Virus record (IMG/VR): IMGVR_UViG_3300046170_000391
Source of the DNA: a virus
Direction: 5' to 3' (one strand)
DNA length: 64,000 bases
Shown here one piece after another: positions 1,362 to 33,579 of this stretch; the first letter of the stretch is position 1, and the number at the start of each line of letters is the position of its first letter. The notes under the pieces are model-generated. The model had not been told where the DNA came from, searched no databases, and saw only the letters and a list, made by a program, of their open reading frames with translations. Made by a program: the position numbers and the translations under genes.

Positions 1362-2534
1362 TTAAAGATTGGGCTTTGCTCTGTTGCGATATTTGCAACC
1401 TTTATACATTTTTTGTTGGTAATGAACTAGATCACCATTTTGAAGTTCGCTTGCGTCTGTAGAAAGCAAGTTAACAAACGGGATAGACTCATTAGGATCA
1501 CGTGCTACAAACACTTCCTCTTCATCATCCTTTTCCATTTCGTCTTCAATAGCTTCCTCGGCTTCAGCTTTGACTTCAACATCATCAGTTTCAGTTTTTT
1601 CTTCAACTGCTTCGTCATCGTCTTTTGTTTCAATGACTTCTTCAGTCTCTGTTTTCACTTCAACCTCCATATCAGCTGTTTCTTCGATGACTTCTTCAGT
1701 CTTCTCCTGAACAGCTTCCTCAGATTTTGAGTTACTCATTGCTTCCTCCTCGGTTGGAGACATTGGACGCTCGTTTACAACCTCGCCCTCCTCCATATTA
1801 TGAATTGGAACACCCAACATTGTAATATCATGTGTGTGGCCTTCGGCCTCAAGCATAACACCTCCAATGATTTTGTGAGCATGGTTAGCCATATGCGATG
1901 CGTATGTGGTTACACCATTGCCAGCATCATCCATTTCTACGGTATGATAATGACCTTCGCTCACGTCAGTAATTCCAGCTTTAATTTTACGCATCATCTT
2001 GATTTCATTTTCGTCAGCCTCTTTAAAAGACTTTTTAAACTCATTAAATTCATCATCTGAATCGAATGATTTACGAATTGAGAATAGTGAATCTTGGTTA
2101 CAAGGGACAGAAACAACAGAAATTTCTAGAAGTTCAACATCAGTAATCATCATTGAGTCATCTTCCCTGTTATATTTGCCATCCTTAACACGAAAACCTA
2201 CACTAAAACTTTTTAAAGCACCATCACGAATCAGGGTTTGTACACCATGAGTCTTTTCTGCTGCTTCGCTAACTGCGCCTTCAACAAAGATACCTTTTTT
2301 ATCGACTGTAATTTTATCAATACGACCGATAGGACAATCATGCTTATGTTGGAATAACATAACAGGATTTTTTCTAAAGTTCTCAACGCCTTTTGCCCAG
2401 GCCTCAGCAGTAACAATATCTCCAGCACGATCTTTTGCTGTTGTATTTGCATAACCTGCAATCTTGAGAGCTTTAGTTCCTTTTTTAACGCTCTTTGTTT
2501 CGAAAGCACTATTTAGATAAAATGTTTTATTCAT
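1362..2534 (-). CDS. Prohead protease (HK97 family) with long acidic C-terminal extension
   Basis: IAGYANTTAKDRAGDIV, LFQH, LKSFSVGF, ELLEISVVSVPCNQDSLF motifs. Confidence 0.92.
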   Translation of the reverse strand: MNKTFYLNSAFETKSVKKGTKALKIAGYANTTAKDRAGDIVTAEAWAKGVENFRKNPVMLFQHKHDCPIGRIDKITVDKKGIFVEGAVSEAAEKTHGVQTLIRDGALKSFSVGFRVKDGKYNREDDSMMITDVELLEISVVSVPCNQDSLFSIRKSFDSDDEFNEFKKSFKEADENEIKMMRKIKAGITDVSEGHYHTVEMDDAGNGVTTYASHMANHAHKIIGGVMLEAEGHTHDITMLGVPIHNMEEGEVVNERPMSPTEEEAMSNSKSEEAVQEKTEEVIEETADMEVEVKTETEEVIETKDDDEAVEEKTETDDVEVKAEAEEAIEDEMEKDDEEEVFVARDPNESIPFVNLLSTDASELQNGDLVHYQQKMYKGCKYRNRAKPNL

Positions 2535-28542: not shown

Positions 28543-29207
28543 TATGTTACCTCTAATCTACCATAATTATCTGCCCAATCTTCGACTGAACACACATCGT
28601 CCATGTCCACATTTGAGTACGGATCTGTAATTACTAATTGCTCTCCGCGAAACATAAAGTTAGCTGAGTGTAAGTCTAACTTAACAGCTTCATGAATTTC
28701 ATCAAATTCCCAGTTATCACTAATGTCATCACAGTCTCCTTCTGTGATTGCATCTGTCCACTTTCTAATCTCATCACACAATCGAATCATTGCATTAGGA
28801 TAAGGAAACACACGAGGATGCTCATCCATAAACACTCTAAATCTCATCTCGTGTTCGTCAACAATGTAGTCACGAACATACTCATAGTAATCATTATAGT
28901 TATCTGATTCGAGACGTTCCATAGTAGCGATATAATAATCATTTTGATAATCAATATAAAATGAATCAACACGTGGCACACAAGGATTACCTTCAAATGT
29001 AAGTGGTTTAATGACCTTTTCATAATAGTGTAACCAAGGATCGTAAGCGTTATTACTAATCTTGATAACTTCAGAATCATTATTACGCTTCTCCATAACA
29101 GCAGAGTAACAACCAATGCCAAGAACAGCATTACCTGCTCGTGCAGTATTCTTCATAATGTTATAAGCAGTTGCCATTACAGTATAATATCCGCAAGTTG
29201 AGGCCAA
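28542..29207 (-). CDS. Ser/Thr protein kinase, T7 gp0.7-like
   Basis: LGIGCYSAV, VIKI, MERL, DLHSAN, VITDP motifs. Confidence 0.75.
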   Translation of the reverse strand: MASTCGYYTVMATAYNIMKNTARAGNAVLGIGCYSAVMEKRNNDSEVIKISNNAYDPWLHYYEKVIKPLTFEGNPCVPRVDSFYIDYQNDYYIATMERLESDNYNDYYEYVRDYIVDEHEMRFRVFMDEHPRVFPYPNAMIRLCDEIRKWTDAITEGDCDDISDNWEFDEIHEAVKLDLHSANFMFRGEQLVITDPYSNVDMDDVCSVEDWADNYGRLEVT

Positions 29208-29931
29208 GTTTCAAGAAGTCGAATACGATCCTTTTGATTCATGTAGTATTCTAGAGCGCACCACAAAGTTTGAATCTCGTCACAGATAGCAGCATCTTTT
29301 TCTGGAAGCAGAGATAACTGAATTAAATCATCTGCGATAACACGTTTAACAACCTCTAATTGTTGCTCTGAAGTAAGTGCAATAGTTGCCATTAGTGTAC
29401 TGTGCCTCGTGTATACATTTGGTGTAGATCATGTTGTATTTGATACCATTCGCTTACGGCGGCTTCAAACCCGATAGTACCCTCACCAAACTCAAGCTGT
29501 GCTTTAATGATGAAATCTGGTTCTGCGACATTAAAGTGGTCACACGCAAAAATTTCACCTTCTAATACTGCTTCTTTGATTTTACCCATTATACTCTATC
29601 TCCCATCATTGCGTCATTAATTTCAGCAGATATCATATACTCATGCTCATCTTCCTCCATCTCAGAGGCAGCATCATACGCAAATTTATAAACATAACGC
29701 TTGATAGCAAGTTGTCCAAGAGCAGACTCGATAGCATCCCAATCATAAGCATATTCTGCTCTTTTGAGACGATCTTCTAGTTCAGATACTTGATATGCAA
29801 AAGTTTCCACAACAGGAAAAAGTTGAGTTGAAGTGGTGCAGTTGCGAATAATTGTAATGTCGTGGTTCATTGTCATGCCTATCTCCTCATTTTCTGTAAA
29901 CAGTATATCAAATATAGGACTAAAACGCAAG

Positions 29932-30612
29932 AAGGGAGTGAACTACGTTTGTCCACTCCCTCCACGAGCATTTAGATCGTGATGATCAATCAATAGGATC
30001 AACTCCGTGCCAGACAAGGTGTAAGGTGCGCTCCCCACATTGGCTTGTTGACTCTAGCTTGAGATTTTGCTTTCTCCTTGGTTGGATGCACGTTATTGTG
30101 CAATTCGTGTATAAAGTCGGAACTAAACACACTGACCTGTATGGAAGGCTAAACCCTTGGTTGTCTGGTTAGGCCAACCTAGAAGCCTCTTAGACACCGA
30201 CTACTCCGAATAGTCAGTACCCGTTTGATGATGATCTCTCATTTTAATGTCTTAACCCAAAGGTTCTACACCTCTATGAGAGTGATGACAGCCACCAGCC
30301 TCGCCTGTCACCGTGAAGGCACGATACACCGTGTGATTCCTTCCCCGACTCTCAGTTAGTTTATCCACACTGAGACACTGTGGCGGGGGTAGCTAACCCC
30401 CTTTACAGAGCAGAGCCTGGTTATATACCCAGGATGCAAGTTGGCGCTTGTAGTATCGAATTAACTGCATACCAACCGATGAGTTAAACTAAATACCCGA
30501 CCCTACCGAAGTAGTTTGTTACATAGTGCTACGCGCGCACAGCCTGGTATTTGTTTTTTCTACTCAGCCTTGCAACGCTTTACAGCCAACGGCACTGAGT
30601 AGATAGTAGTAG
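29932..30612 (-). ncRNA. Candidate large structured ncRNA A (about 680 nt)
   Basis: No ORF of 60 aa or more; GC-richer than flanks; many nested helices; ends in AGGGAGTG..CACTCCCT hairpin. Confidence 0.65.
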
Positions 30613-30615
30613 GTC

Positions 30616-30933
30616 TTAGTGCGCTACTACACCCATCAAACGAGTTAGTGCGTCTTTCGTTGCACCCTCGAACCCAGTAACATCAAAGCCTTGAGCTTCA
30701 ATATCACGCAGGATTTCTTTCTTAGAAGGGCCATCCTGCTTTGCGGCGGACTTTTTAGGAGATGCCACATATGCTCCCTCGCGAACGAGCTTGGAACGGA
30801 CAGAACGAACAGTTTTGTCCATTGATTCAGCAATCTGGTCAAGACCATCGTTGCCGAGTTCATTATACATTTCGATCATAGTATTGACCATTTCCGCAGT
30901 ATAATTTGCAGATTTTAGAGTAGCTTCAGCCAT
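30616..30933 (-). CDS. T5 A2-like DNA-binding protein, copy 3
   Basis: NYTAEM...RSVRSKLVREGAY...KKEIL...FEGATK; own TTGCTT..TATTAT promoter at about 31005-31036. Confidence 0.7.
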   Translation of the reverse strand: MAEATLKSANYTAEMVNTMIEMYNELGNDGLDQIAESMDKTVRSVRSKLVREGAYVASPKKSAAKQDGPSKKEILRDIEAQGFDVTGFEGATKDALTRLMGVVAH

Positions 30934-31044
30934 AATTCACCTCGATTAGCTCTGAAACGTGATGGCAATAGTCAGAGGCATTGCCGTTCCCTCATTCAAT
31001 AAATACATAATATCAAATAAATAACCTATAAGCAATTCAAAAAT

Positions 31045-31198
31045 CATGGGGAAGACTGTGTTCTCTACTAGCGAAGGTTGTTTTGAATGGTGCCTAGTGC
31101 TTAACACATCGTGGGCTTCTCTTGCGTTCGATACTGACAGGACTTCCCCTGAGACTTTGCGGAGGGTTCTTTAGAGTCGGTTATCCCTTACCTCAACG
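31045..31198 (-). ncRNA. Candidate small structured RNA B (about 150 nt)
   Basis: Own promoter at about 31207-31236; no RBS/ORF; GGGGAAG/CTTCCCC, TGTGTT/AACACA, ACTAG/CTAGT helices. Confidence 0.5.
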
Positions 31199-31254
31199 AC
31201 ATATAGATAATACGAAATATTTAAGTAAAAAGCAAACAGAATGTTTAGTTAGAT

Positions 31255-31742
31255 TCCAACACAGCCCCCACACCCGCCTGTTGAATGAGCCTTCTTCAAA
31301 CGAGTGAAAGAGATTGACTTTGACTACCCCCGTTGGTAGAAAAAGAACTCAATACCCAAAGCAAGACCCTTACCGTTTCGGGGAGCTACAACACGTCGCT
31401 GGTAGGCGACAGGCGACGGGAGCTCACCCAGAAAAAGGTGGGGATGTTTTTTACATCGTTTCCCCTTGCCCCTCAGAGCCGATGGCACGGTTGCGCGTTG
31501 TGCAATGCGCCTACTCTGGATATATTTACAAGCATCGAGTAGGTTTGGCTTGGGAGTCGCAAGTGGTGCCTCACTTACCTTATCGCGGTAAACGGCTTCT
31601 TTCACCCATGAGCGTGGGACAGATAAGTTACAGGCTGAGACGCTTTCCGTGACTCCGTTGGATCATTAACCGAATTTAACTTGCGCAGTGCTTTCCACAA
31701 GGGTAGCAGTACCTGCTCGGAGGATGATGCCTCAACTCATCT
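31255..31742 (-). ncRNA. Candidate large structured ncRNA C (about 490 nt)
   Basis: Own promoter (TTGCTC..TATTAT, about 31752-31780); GC-rich; near-continuous hairpins. Confidence 0.65.
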
Positions 31743-32065
31743 TGTATATACATAATATCGAAAAATTTAGAAAAGAGCAACAGCAAAGTGAAATTATTAA
31801 GAGTTGCTCGACTTATTTATTTATGGTTTTTAATCATCTCTTGGTAGCGCAAGACTACCTTCTCGTCTCTCAGGTGACAACCTGAAAAAAGCCATATAAA
31901 ACGTTCTTTCCAGTTTGCTTTGTGTGATATACCATTAGGTTCAATCACTTTAAGAGTAAAAAACTTGCTTATCATAGATTTGCTCCTTTTTCGTTCAAGA
32001 GATTAAATATATCTGAAATCAGAGCAGAAAGCAATTTTTAATTAAAAATGATTACAGTTCAATAA

Positions 32066-32863
32066 CTAATTTTCATCATTCCACCCACTTCTTCTGTAGT
32101 TTTGACGCTCTGGAATAGCAGGATTTAGGATGACCTCTTGATTTGTTTGAAAATTTTTATGAAAGCCTGAGCAGAAGAGTCTTAGTCTTTTAATATCTTT
32201 ATGATCTGTGTAGCCGATTGCCGTATATTTCTTGTTATCATAAGGTAAATGGTCAAATTTAGGCAAAGGTTTATTCAAATCTAATATAAAAGTCTCTACA
32301 TATAGATCTTCGACTTCTTCTGGAGTAATGTAAATATCGACAGTTCCATTTGAAAGTAATTTATTGACGTATTTTTGACCAGTAATTTCATATTGATAAA
32401 ATACTTCATCTAAGTAATGTGAATTAAATCTAAAAACAGAGTATGATTTTGACGTTGGAAATATCTGAACCATTCGTGATTGCCAATTATGAAGTGCGTA
32501 CGCAACTGAAGGAATCATCGGGACGGTATAAACTAGATCTTCAAAAAATATATAATCATACCCATCACGCGGTTTCATGTAATTGGCCTTGATAAAGTTG
32601 ACTTCAGGGTACTCCTGTTTACAAATATTCTCACAAACAGAGGATGCGTCCATACAATCTACATCAAGGCCAAGAGATAGTGCGTAATTGGTTAATCTAC
32701 CTACTCCGCCAGGCACAAAAAGTCCTTTTTTATTAATCCATTCATCTTTATAAGTATCAACAAAAGATTTTTGTAGTTCAAATAATCTTTTATTGTTAAC
32801 TTGAAAAGGCCCAGAATCAGTCATTGACGACTGATCACTAGGGTGAGTAATAATTCTCATCAA
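32066..32863 (-). CDS. Degenerate SAM-dependent methyltransferase-like protein
   Basis: PGGVGRL...VDCMDAS...YDYIF pattern. Confidence 0.4.
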   Translation of the reverse strand: MMRIITHPSDQSSMTDSGPFQVNNKRLFELQKSFVDTYKDEWINKKGLFVPGGVGRLTNYALSLGLDVDCMDASSVCENICKQEYPEVNFIKANYMKPRDGYDYIFFEDLVYTVPMIPSVAYALHNWQSRMVQIFPTSKSYSVFRFNSHYLDEVFYQYEITGQKYVNKLLSNGTVDIYITPEEVEDLYVETFILDLNKPLPKFDHLPYDNKKYTAIGYTDHKDIKRLRLFCSGFHKNFQTNQEVILNPAIPERQNYRRSGWNDEN

Positions 32864-33579
32864 GCAGCCTGTTTTAGCTGTACCATTTCATCAATGTCAA
32901 CGAACTGCATAGTCTCATTCTGACACAAACTATCAATCCACTCATTACGTTTTACTACTAACATAAAAGTATTTCTAGGAATTGAAGTGATATTTTGAGT
33001 TCCATGACCAGTGTGATCTGGATTGAAGATCAGAAACTGACCTTTTTGTAGATTAACAGTGACTTGTGAGTCAGCCGTCTTAAAATGGAACCAAGCCCCT
33101 CCGGGCATATCATTGAGTTGTACAAAAATACGAACTGTCTCACCATAGTCGGTGCCTTTAGTGTTATCAAAATCAGTATGAATAGGCATATGATGCCCAG
33201 GTTGTTGTTGAAAAATTCTAATACGAGATTTTTCACACTGGAACCAATCACATATAGCAGCTAGTTTTGGTGATGCAAAATATGAATCTGTATATGAAAA
33301 ATCGGATGGTACATCTTCTTTCCAAAAGTCATCACCTAGTGTGTCATGAAATGTAGACTCACCTGTGGCACTCTTGAATGAGTTGTACAGATAACCAGAG
33401 TGGATACCTTTATCATCATCCGATTGACGAATTGTTTCGTCTTGGCTCTCCTGAGTGCGAGGAGTATATTTTAGATTAGCGAGTTCATTATCCCAGTTAC
33501 CTGTGAAAATATATGAACTAGCATAAATGCCAGTTGAAGGATTATAACCTTCTGGCTCATATTGTTTTAATTCAGTCAT
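32860..33579 (-). CDS. 2OG-Fe(II)/cupin hydroxylase (AspH-like)
   Basis: QPG...HTD...HGT.N. Confidence 0.7.
   Translation of the reverse strand: MTELKQYEPEGYNPSTGIYASSYIFTGNWDNELANLKYTPRTQESQDETIRQSDDDKGIHSGYLYNSFKSATGESTFHDTLGDDFWKEDVPSDFSYTDSYFASPKLAAICDWFQCEKSRIRIFQQQPGHHMPIHTDFDNTKGTDYGETVRIFVQLNDMPGGAWFHFKTADSQVTVNLQKGQFLIFNPDHTGHGTQNITSIPRNTFMLVVKRNEWIDSLCQNETMQFVDIDEMVQLKQAA

What the first reader, a model, noticed from the sequence alone, without database searches (positions are those of the whole stretch)
31255..31742. RNA C: about 490-nt independently promoted structured RNA
Almost every segment pairs: AGCAG-GTA-CTGCT, CTTG..CAAG, long-range GGAGTC/GACTCC, TTACC/GGTAA, AAGTG/CACTT, CCTACTC/GAGTAGG, GCGC..GCGC, GATGT/ACATC, CACC/GGTG, GTCGC/GCGAC, GAGCT/AGCTC, GCAAG/CTTGC, CTACC/GGTAG, TTGAA/TTCAA. 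Overlapping ORFs in the track lack an RBS and have atypical composition.
Basis: partly seen in the sequence, partly recalled or inferred. Interest (0 to 1): 0.78.

Follow-up and report, generated by a model that had tools for sequence, protein, structure and literature searches.

The report
New large structured phage RNA
The stretch is a real gene for a roughly 490-base folded RNA that makes no protein, belongs to no catalogued RNA family, and recurs with its own promoter in many uncultured marine relatives of phage T5; what it does is unknown.

Summary
The finding holds. Window 31253-31745, minus strand, encodes a ~490-nt structured non-coding RNA with its own sigma70-like promoter (TTGCTC-N17-TATTAT, 31780-31752).

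- **Single sequence:** it folds no better than shuffles (z -0.45 and -0.57).
- **Homologues:** I collected about 30 from marine viral and metagenome contigs, in at least 8 clades down to ~70% identity.
- **Not coding:** no ORF is conserved, and indels between clades break the reading frame.
- **Covariation, 5' domain:** 94% of cells paired against 25-40% in slid controls, and 12 pairs changed on both sides against 1-5.
- **Covariation, 3' domain:** 97% against 37-47%, and 11 pairs against 0-3.
- **Strand:** 27 G:U against 0 A:C cells in the 3' domain, UUCG caps, the promoter, and a terminator in one relative all fix the minus strand.
9 of 14 are supported and 5 are not.
- **Known families:** Rfam 15 has no match, including RNase P, tmRNA, GOLLD and ROOL. 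Cultured phages and bacterial genomes have no homologue.
- **Context:** the RNA always sits next to a second conserved RNA ('RNA B') and often near tRNA genes.

Function is unknown. My best guess is a stable trans-acting RNA of the GOLLD/ROOL kind. The scan noted this stretch before only on this same genome.

The parts
31752..31780 (-). Sigma70-like promoter: -35 TTGCTC (31780-31775), 17-nt spacer, -10 TATTAT (31757-31752). The predicted start is near A31745.
   Evidence: 4 matches against 0.2 expected. A promoter of the same layout sits at the same distance from the RNA 5' end in every clade (sequences).
31253..31745 (-). RNA C, the whole transcript body of about 490 nt: 5' domain, middle domain and 3' domain.
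   Evidence: Homology between clades begins just upstream of the promoter and ends at ...GCUGUGUUGGAAU. No ORF is conserved.
31621..31742 (-). 5' domain, the universal core of the family.
- P1: 31729-31742 with 31621-31635
- P2: 31724-31728 with 31662-31666
- P3: 31717-31720 with 31670-31673
- P4: 31713-31716 with 31685-31688, capped by a variable hairpin
- P5: 31649-31655 with 31637-31641, with loop GGAANNN at 31642-31648
   Evidence: Covariance model R1 finds exactly one copy per locus. P4 caps are UUCG tetraloops in four other clades.
31633..31669 (-). Near-invariant block UUAAUGAUSCAACGGAGUCACGGAA-NNN-GUCUCAGCC. It is identical in five clades, and its P5 stem covaries in four more.
   Evidence: RNA-library contigs of divergent relatives match only this block (records 11-13, 23, 24).
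31440..31620 (-). Middle domain.
- M1 hairpin: 31615-31618 with 31605-31608
- M2: 31587-31589 with 31577-31579
- M3: 31572-31576 with 31561-31565, with invariant loop AGGCAC at 31566-31571
- M4 (tentative, invariant): 31547-31550 with 31477-31480
- M5: 31537-31543 with 31510-31516, loop GCUUGUAAAUAU
- M6: 31507-31509 with 31494-31496, loop AUUGCACAAC
- M7: 31454-31464 with 31440-31446
   Evidence: M3 has six different stems around the same loop. M5 is CCUAC/GUAGG, CCUAU/AUAGG or GUCC/GGAC. M6 is GCGC/GCGC or AGGU/ACCU.
31253..31439 (-). 3' domain.
- Pa: 31421-31425 with 31383-31387
- Pb: 31413-31418 with 31394-31399, with invariant loop CUGUCGCCUACCA at 31400-31412
- Pc: 31379-31381 with 31373-31375
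- Pe: 31363-31369 with 31287-31293
- Pd: 31335-31339 with 31324-31328
- Pt, the terminal hairpin: 31277-31285 with 31255-31264, with G-rich loop GCGGG-N-GGGGC at 31265-31276
   Evidence: 96.6% of cells paired and 11 pairs changed on both sides. add Pc, Pd, Pe and Pt. One search counts 27 G:U cells against 0 A:C cells.
31036..31206 (-). RNA B, the constant neighbour of RNA C. It has its own promoter here (31235-31207) and ends in a long closing stem GGGGAAG.../...CUUCCCC followed by a U run.
   Evidence: A homologue lies next to RNA C in every clade, in the order C-B or B-C.

Best explanation
Window 31253-31745 (minus strand) is the gene of a stable, structured, non-coding RNA of about 490 nt. 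It is a new family carried by uncultured marine phages distantly related to T5.

**Shown**
- It has a conserved sigma70-type promoter, so host RNA polymerase should transcribe it.
- It folds into three domains.
  - The 5' domain has five helices and is present in every family member.
  - The middle domain has conserved hairpin loops (AGGCAC, GCUUGUAAAUAU, AUUGCACAAC).
  - The 3' domain has an invariant 13-nt loop and a terminal hairpin with a G-rich loop.

**Inferred**
- The RNA acts in trans as a free-standing folded RNA. It is probably part of an RNA-only or RNA-protein assembly with its constant neighbour RNA B.
- Its invariant loops contact a highly conserved partner such as the translation or RNA-processing machinery.
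- This is the same kind of role suspected for the tRNA-island RNAs GOLLD and ROOL.
For: **Conservation**
- The element is 97-99% identical in contigs whose flanking genes are 35-80% identical or unrelated.

**Family size**
- About 30 loci in at least 8 clades carry it, each with a promoter at the same distance from the RNA start.
- One model hit per locus, with scores of 69-165 bits.

**Covariation**
- 5' domain: 94.4% of cells paired against 25-40% when partners are slid, 12 pairs changed on both sides against 1-5, score 0.266 against at most 0.08, and 0 of 500 shuffles reach it.
- 3' domain: 96.6% against 37-47%, 11 pairs against 0-3, score 0.442 against at most 0.147.
- Middle domain: the M3 stem takes six sequences around the invariant loop AGGCAC.
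- Variable hairpins are capped by UUCG tetraloops in four clades.

**Strand**
- The 3' domain has 27 G:U cells and no A:C cell.
- The promoter and the surrounding gene block are on the minus strand.
- In L038 an intrinsic terminator on the same strand follows the terminal hairpin directly.

**Not coding**
- Indels of 5, 4, 21 and 1 nt separate the clades.
- No ORF is shared between clades.
- Only 2 protein-database hits were found for the 112-aa ORF.

**Stand-alone gene rather than a leader**
- What follows it differs by clade: RNA B, a terminator, or a manA RNA and then a tRNA.
- The order of B and C is swapped in two clades.
- tRNA genes lie nearby in several loci.

**Presence in RNA libraries**
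- Contigs from four marine metatranscriptome studies cover it. Some bridge the C/B junction (records 6, 8, 9, 17, 19, 21, 22).
Against: - The single-sequence folding energy is not better than shuffles.
- Function, partner, transcript ends and stability are not measured. Metatranscriptome contigs cannot show strand or ends, and DNA may be present in those libraries.
- In the window no terminator follows the RNA. RNA-library contigs run across both its ends, so it may be made partly as a longer C-B transcript and then processed.
- P2 and M4 never vary, so they rest on sequence complementarity alone.
- M2 and M3 compete for two bases.
- Alignments A5 and A7 were fitted to the model structure, which favours it.
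- The clades are few, so the covariation counts come from a small number of independent events.
Confidence: 0.55

Rival explanations
1. It is a cis-acting leader or riboswitch-like sensor. It would control transcription or translation of what lies downstream: RNA B and the conserved 105-aa DNA-binding-like gene at 30616-30933.
For: - No terminator separates C from B in the window, and RNA-library contigs bridge the junction.
- In clade 3, C and B are only about 12 nt apart with no promoter between them.
- The order C, B, 105-aa gene is kept in clades 1-3.
- In clade 4 a manA RNA, a published riboswitch candidate, follows directly (PMC2864571).
Against: - RNA B ends in a terminator-like stem plus a U run, and the 105-aa gene has its own promoter.
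- In L038 the RNA is followed by its own terminator.
- In clades 4 and 5 the order is B then C, and in L032 the 105-aa gene lies 5.5 kb upstream.
- What lies downstream is not constant.
Confidence: 0.12
2. It is a ribozyme or the RNA subunit of a processing enzyme. One example would be a very divergent RNase P-like or other tRNA-maturation RNA that serves the phage's own tRNAs.
For: - It lies in or near tRNA clusters.
- Short blocks are conserved at a level comparable to rRNA.
- By my recollection of the E. coli RNase P sequence, clade 1 has local look-alikes of RNase P motifs: GGGUGAAAG and GGUAAGUGAGGCACC.
Against: - No Rfam RNase P, hammerhead, twister or other ribozyme model matches, even at E up to 10.
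- The RNase P-like strings are confined to clade 1 and are replaced in other clades.
- No P4-type pseudoknot was found.
Confidence: 0.1
3. It is an origin or primer transcript. A folded RNA with a G-rich 3' end would form a persistent RNA-DNA hybrid that primes phage DNA replication, as ColE1 RNA II does (my background knowledge).
For: - Its length of about 490 nt is similar to RNA II.
- It has a strong promoter, and in the window no terminator follows it.
- It has a conserved G-rich terminal loop, GCGGG-N-GGGGC.
- An AT-rich stretch follows it.
Against: - The G-rich run sits in a hairpin loop whose stem covaries, which means it is used as RNA structure.
- L038 terminates the RNA immediately.
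- What lies downstream differs by clade.
- No replication genes are adjacent.
Confidence: 0.06
4. It is a small protein gene (31314-31652 plus strand or 31324-31605 minus strand), or only chance pairings in a spacer.
For: - ORFs of 112 and 93 aa exist.
- The folding energy is no better than shuffles.
Against: - The ORFs are truncated, shifted or absent in relatives: the 112-aa ORF is already only 71 aa in L016, 95% identical in DNA, and no ORF of 40 aa or more exists in L030.
- They have no Pfam or PHROG match.
- Indels between clades break the frame.
- Covariation is far above the controls.
Confidence: 0.02

Closest known systems
GOLLD and ROOL RNAs (Rfam; Weinberg 2009 and 2017; cryo-EM in PMC12286853)
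   Same: - They are large (roughly 500-800 nt), elaborately folded RNAs of unknown function.
- They are encoded by phages and prophages, often near tRNA islands.
- GOLLD combines one universally conserved half with one variable half, and one GOLLD came from a marine metagenome (PMC12286853).
- RNA C is likewise phage-borne and near tRNA genes, and it has a universal 5' domain with variable middle and 3' domains.
   Different: - No sequence or structure match to either Rfam model, even at E up to 10.
- Here the conserved half is the 5' one.
- The hosts are marine T5-like phages, not phages of Lactobacillales, mycobacteria or the rumen.
- Oligomer or cage formation was not tested.
manA RNA motif (RF01745)
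   Same: - It is a marine, phage-borne structured RNA (PMC2864571).
- A genuine manA RNA (61.3 bits, threshold 55.2) lies directly 3' of the RNA C homologue in clade 4.
   Different: - RNA C itself does not match manA.
- The window's 3' domain occupies that position instead and shares no structure with manA.
- manA is thought to be a cis-acting 5' UTR element.
Bacterial RNase P RNA
   Same: - It is a stable RNA of similar size linked to tRNA biology.
- Clade 1 shows a few short look-alike strings.
   Different: - No Rfam hit.
- The look-alike strings are not conserved across the family.
- No P4 core was found.
Candidate structured RNAs catalogued from IMG/VR (PMC10690425)
   Same: That survey covered the same data source, intergenic regions of IMG/VR contigs. 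It may therefore hold an anonymous motif that overlaps part of this RNA.
   Different: - I could not check the catalogue.
- The main text describes no large RNA from marine T5-like phages.
- No name or function exists for such a motif.

Membership tests
Any Rfam 15 family (4227 models) | Score at or above the family's gathering threshold | tested here: not met
   The window gave only three tRNAs at the gathering threshold. Nothing relevant appeared at E up to 10 in 29800-32100 or in six divergent loci, apart from manA beside the element.
GOLLD / ROOL | Match to the family covariance model (conserved 3' region of GOLLD; ROOL pseudoknotted core) | tested here: not met
   No hit at E up to 10.
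GOLLD / ROOL | Phage-encoded and located at or near tRNA genes | tested here: met
   The phage is identified by terminase, protease and other hallmark genes. tRNA genes flank the RNA in L030, L023, L028 and L037, and lie 14 kb away in the window.
GOLLD / ROOL | Self-assembly into a homo-oligomeric RNA cage | not testable with these tools
   This needs native gels or cryo-EM of the transcript.
manA RNA (RF01745) | Match to the covariance model | tested here: not met
   RNA C does not match. Only the neighbouring stretch L030 2831-3000 does.
RNase P RNA | Conserved P4 core and conserved regions CR-I to CR-V, as detected by the Rfam models | tested here: not met
   No hit at E up to 10. The look-alike strings occur only in clade 1.
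Structured non-coding RNA gene (generic) | Helices kept by compensatory changes, beyond what controls give | tested here: met
Structured non-coding RNA gene (generic) | Own promoter and terminator, and no conserved ORF | tested here: met
   Every clade has a promoter. L038 has a terminator, while the window has none directly after the RNA. ORFs are not conserved.
Structured non-coding RNA gene (generic) | A discrete transcript with defined ends seen in vivo | tested here: inconclusive
   RNA-library contigs cover it, but they show neither strand nor ends.

The most novel reading that the evidence does not exclude
RNA C, with its constant partner RNA B and perhaps RNA A, is a previously unrecognised class of large ornate phage RNA. 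It would build an RNA-only or RNA-protein machine that acts on a universally conserved host component such as the ribosome, a tRNA pathway or RNA polymerase during infection by marine T5-like phages. It would be a third, unrelated example beside GOLLD and ROOL, and it is present in ocean metatranscriptomes.
Probability: 0.35. Interest if true: 0.85.

Novelty: new variant of a known kind. Interest (0 to 1): 0.74.

Why it matters
- **Rarity.** Large, elaborately folded RNAs of unknown function are rare, and each one found so far (RNase P, group I and II introns, OLE, GOLLD, ROOL) has revealed new biochemistry or architecture.
- **Quality of the candidate.** This one has a clear family, a well-supported fold and blocks conserved at rRNA level. 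It also has a constant partner RNA and appears in RNA libraries from the ocean.
- **What it opens up.** The fold can be taken directly to structure probing, cryo-EM and partner pull-downs. It also gives a marker for an uncultured lineage of marine T5-like phages.
- **Wider point.** It shows that phage regions rich in stable RNA genes hold more than tRNAs.

Tried and rejected
**Searches that found nothing**
- Rfam at the gathering threshold and at E up to 10 gave nothing for RNA C.
- blastn of the region and of the 5' domain against 50,697 cultured-phage records gave no homologue; the only hit was a 24-nt chance match to a Clavibacter phage.
- tblastn of the neighbouring kinase-like protein against the same records gave no match.
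- No whole genome is held for this window.

**Chance pattern matches**
- The 17-mer hits L006-L011 share only the seed with the window.
- The soil contigs L017, L020, L022 and L025 share only the 21-mer and did not match the model.
- The one hit in bacterial genomes, L034, is a GC-rich chance match.

**Ideas dropped**
- RNase P, tmRNA, group II domain V and hammerhead were considered from short look-alike strings. All were dropped because nothing is conserved across clades and no model matches.
- My first middle-domain helix 'M2 outer' (GCC/GGC) was dropped. GGC lies in the invariant AGGCAC loop of the better-supported M3 hairpin.
- I looked by eye for a conserved partner of the invariant loop CGCCUAC. 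It can pair with GUAGGCG of M5/M6 in clades 1-2, but that pairing is lost in other clades.
- Similar checks against RNA B gave nothing consistent.
- Resemblances to 16S rRNA strings rest on my memory of the sequence and were not pursued.

**Metatranscriptome coverage**
- The RNA-library contigs that were laid left 29000-29400 and 32082-33000 uncovered.
- The runs were chosen because they hold this stretch, and contigs do not measure expression. I therefore draw nothing from the uncovered parts or from the depth figures.

Full report
**Where it lies**

The window is part of an uncultured phage. It encodes a large terminase, a head protease, an HNH endonuclease and three tRNAs. The terminase is closest, at about 40% amino-acid identity, to T5-like phages such as My1, Slocum and PSTCR5. 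No cultured phage matches at the DNA level.

Genes from about 21.4 to 47.9 kb run on the minus strand. The finding sits in a 2-kb stretch that is richer in G+C (0.49-0.54 against about 0.36 around it). That stretch holds only one convincing protein gene, 30616-30933, a 105-aa DNA-binding-like protein.

**Checking the observation**

- On its own the 488-nt stretch does not fold better than shuffled versions, on either strand (z -0.45 and -0.57).
- The promoter is real as a motif. TTGCT-N17/18-TATTAT occurs four times in 64 kb against 0.2 expected. Three of the four lie on the minus strand at 31780-31752, 31235-31207 and 31035-31007.

**Relatives**

Exact-pattern scans of IMG/VR and JGI metagenomes, and one look-up through a spurious ORF translation, gave about 30 loci.
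- One group is 95-99% identical over 29050-32041, while the flanks are only 35-80% identical or unrelated.
- The other groups are about 70% identical or share only blocks.
- I count at least eight clades: the window group; L014/L023/L012; L038; L039; L035/L036; L029/L031; L027/L030/L032; L028/L033 with L037.

All come from marine or estuarine samples. Bacterial species genomes gave only a chance hit.

Every member has a sigma70-like promoter at the same distance from the conserved 5' end. In L038 an 11-pair intrinsic terminator follows the last helix directly.

**Not coding**

- Between clades there are indels of 5, 4, 21 and 1 nt.
- The 112-aa and 93-aa ORFs of the window are shortened, shifted or absent in relatives. 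L030 has no ORF of 40 aa or more.
- Neither ORF matches Pfam or PHROGs.
- Among 5.8 billion proteins, only two fragments match the 112-aa ORF.

**Structure**

*5' domain (31742-31621).*
- P1 joins the purine-rich 5' end to a pyrimidine-rich strand.
- P2 is AUCAU/AUGAU.
- P3 alternates CCGA/UCGG with CUGG/CCAG.
- P4 is closed by a hairpin of variable length that carries a UUCG tetraloop in four clades.
- P5 presents the loop GGAANNN.

A covariance model built from ten sequences finds exactly one copy per locus at 69-165 bits and none elsewhere in the window.

| Measure, 17 distinct sequences | As proposed | Partners slid by 1-3 columns |
|---|---|---|
| Cells forming a standard pair | 94.4% | 25-40% |
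| Pairs changed on both sides | 12 | 1-5 |
| Covariation score | 0.266 | at most 0.08 |

None of 500 shuffles reaches the observed score. P5 was invariant in the first five clades. It covaries once L035-L039 are added: GAG/CUC becomes GUG/CAC, GUGG/CCAC or UAGGG/CCCUG. P2 never varies.

*3' domain (31439-31253).* It has these helices:
- Pa;
- Pb, with the invariant loop CUGUCGCCUACCA;
- the small hairpin Pc;
- the 7-bp helix Pe, which encloses a variable hairpin Pd;
- the terminal hairpin Pt, whose loop is always GCGGG-N(3-6)-GGGGC.

| Measure, 8 sequences from three clades | As proposed | Partners slid by 1-3 columns |
|---|---|---|
| Cells forming a standard pair | 96.6% | 37-47% |
| Pairs changed on both sides | 11 | 0-3 |
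| Covariation score | 0.442 | at most 0.147 |

Later members extend the covariation of Pt: UUCAACA/UGUUGGAA, CUUAACA/UGUUAAG, GCAAC/GUUGC, UGACCA/UGGUCA and CAACG/CGUUG.

*Middle domain (31620-31440).* It is shared by six clades.
- M3 takes six stem sequences around the fixed loop AGGCAC.
- M5 takes three and M6 two.
- M2 and M3 compete for two bases.
- M4 is invariant, so both M2 and M4 are tentative.

**Strand**

- In the 3' domain, 27 cells are G:U and none is A:C. That gives 96.6% paired on the minus strand against 83.7% on the plus strand.
- The 5' domain is less decisive (20 against 12).
- The UUCG caps, the promoter, the L038 terminator and the surrounding genes all point the same way.

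Nine of the fourteen pairings agree with covarying or conserved helices and five do not.
- The AGCAG-GTA-CTGCT hairpin competes with P4, which is the one that covaries.
- CTTG/CAAG uses the conserved junction GAAAG and is broken in L003 and L005.
- GGAGTC/GACTCC uses the P5 strand and is not kept in other clades.
- GCAAG/CTTGC and TTGAA/TTCAA conflict with Pe and Pt.

**Context**

- A second conserved RNA, 'RNA B' (31206-31036 here), lies next to RNA C in every clade. The order is C-B in most and B-C in L030 and L033.
- In L029 and L031 the two are about 12 nt apart with no promoter between them. In the window RNA B has its own promoter.
- In L030 a genuine manA RNA (61.3 bits, threshold 55.2) replaces the window's 3' domain and is followed by a tRNA.
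- tRNA genes lie near the element in several loci.
- The 105-aa protein is 76-83% identical across clades whose other proteins are 33-40% identical. It lies downstream of C-B in clades 1-3, but 5.5 kb upstream in L032.

**Expression**

Contigs from four marine RNA-library studies cover parts of RNA C and bridge the C/B junction and the promoter. Contigs show neither strand, ends nor level, and DNA may contaminate such libraries. This shows only that the sequence is present in RNA libraries.

Several short contigs match only the near-invariant block 31631-31673, or 31474-31513, and then diverge. More relatives therefore exist than I could fetch.

**What it is**

The evidence fits a free-standing gene for a structured RNA. 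It is not a leader, because its downstream neighbour changes and it can carry its own terminator. It is not a protein gene.

No Rfam family matches, including RNase P, tmRNA, GOLLD, ROOL and the ribozymes. In kind it is closest to GOLLD and ROOL, which are large, ornate, phage-borne RNAs near tRNA islands with unknown function (PMC12286853).

The mechanism is inferred, not shown. Some blocks are identical across clades whose proteins have diverged to 35% identity. That suggests contacts with a very conserved partner, and the constant pairing with RNA B suggests a joint assembly.

I put about 0.93 on 'real structured RNA gene' and about 0.55 on the combined statement that it acts in trans. The rivals are a cis leader (0.12), a ribozyme or processing RNA (0.10) and a replication primer (0.06).

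**Limits**

- There are few independent clades.
- Alignments A5 and A7 were fitted to the model.
- Model E-values are rough.
- The IMG/VR catalogue of candidate RNAs (PMC10690425) could hold an anonymous overlap that I could not check.
- The scan had noted this stretch before only on this same genome.

Noticed in passing
window 31036-31206 (minus strand): 'RNA B' is a conserved RNA of about 170 nt with its own promoter (31235-31207). It has a long closing stem GGGGAAG.../...CUUCCCC followed by a U run. A homologue lies next to RNA C in every clade, in either order. It has no Rfam match.
   Followed up: partly
window 29932-30615 (minus strand): 'RNA A' is a G+C-rich stretch of about 680 nt without an ORF, downstream of the 105-aa gene. 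It ends at a terminator-like hairpin (29963-29931). A 70-nt core of it (RNA positions about 259-335) recurs in L030, L032, L028 and L033. It has no Rfam match.
   Followed up: partly
window 30616-30933 (minus strand): This 105-aa protein (PHROG 1725, 'DNA binding protein', E 2e-7) is 76-83% identical across clades whose other proteins are 33-40% identical. It usually sits just after RNAs C and B, so it is a possible protein partner of the RNAs.
   Followed up: partly
L030 2831-3000 (plus strand): A genuine manA RNA (RF01745, 61.3 bits) lies in a T5-like marine phage contig, directly after the RNA C homologue and before a tRNA. manA was described from T4-like cyanophages and marine metagenomes.
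   Followed up: partly
L038 about 1745-1850 (minus strand); also the 3' end of the L036 stretch shown: After the RNA C terminator comes a tRNA-like piece: GGCGAUGAGUGGCAGAGUGGUUAUGCG...GGUUCGAUUCC. It has D-loop and T-arm signatures, but ARAGORN does not call it. It may be an unusual or truncated tRNA-like element.
   Followed up: no
window 29050-32041: In several contigs the whole block is about 90% identical or more, with sharp ends at 29050 and 32041, while the flanks differ. It contains a 113-aa ORF, RNA A, the 105-aa gene, RNA B, RNA C and a 52-aa ORF. The block behaves as a conserved cassette in a mosaic genome.
   Followed up: partly
window 31817-31975 (minus strand): A 52-aa ORF just upstream of the RNA C promoter is conserved at about 64% identity in clade 2 (L014, L023). 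It has no known family.
   Followed up: no
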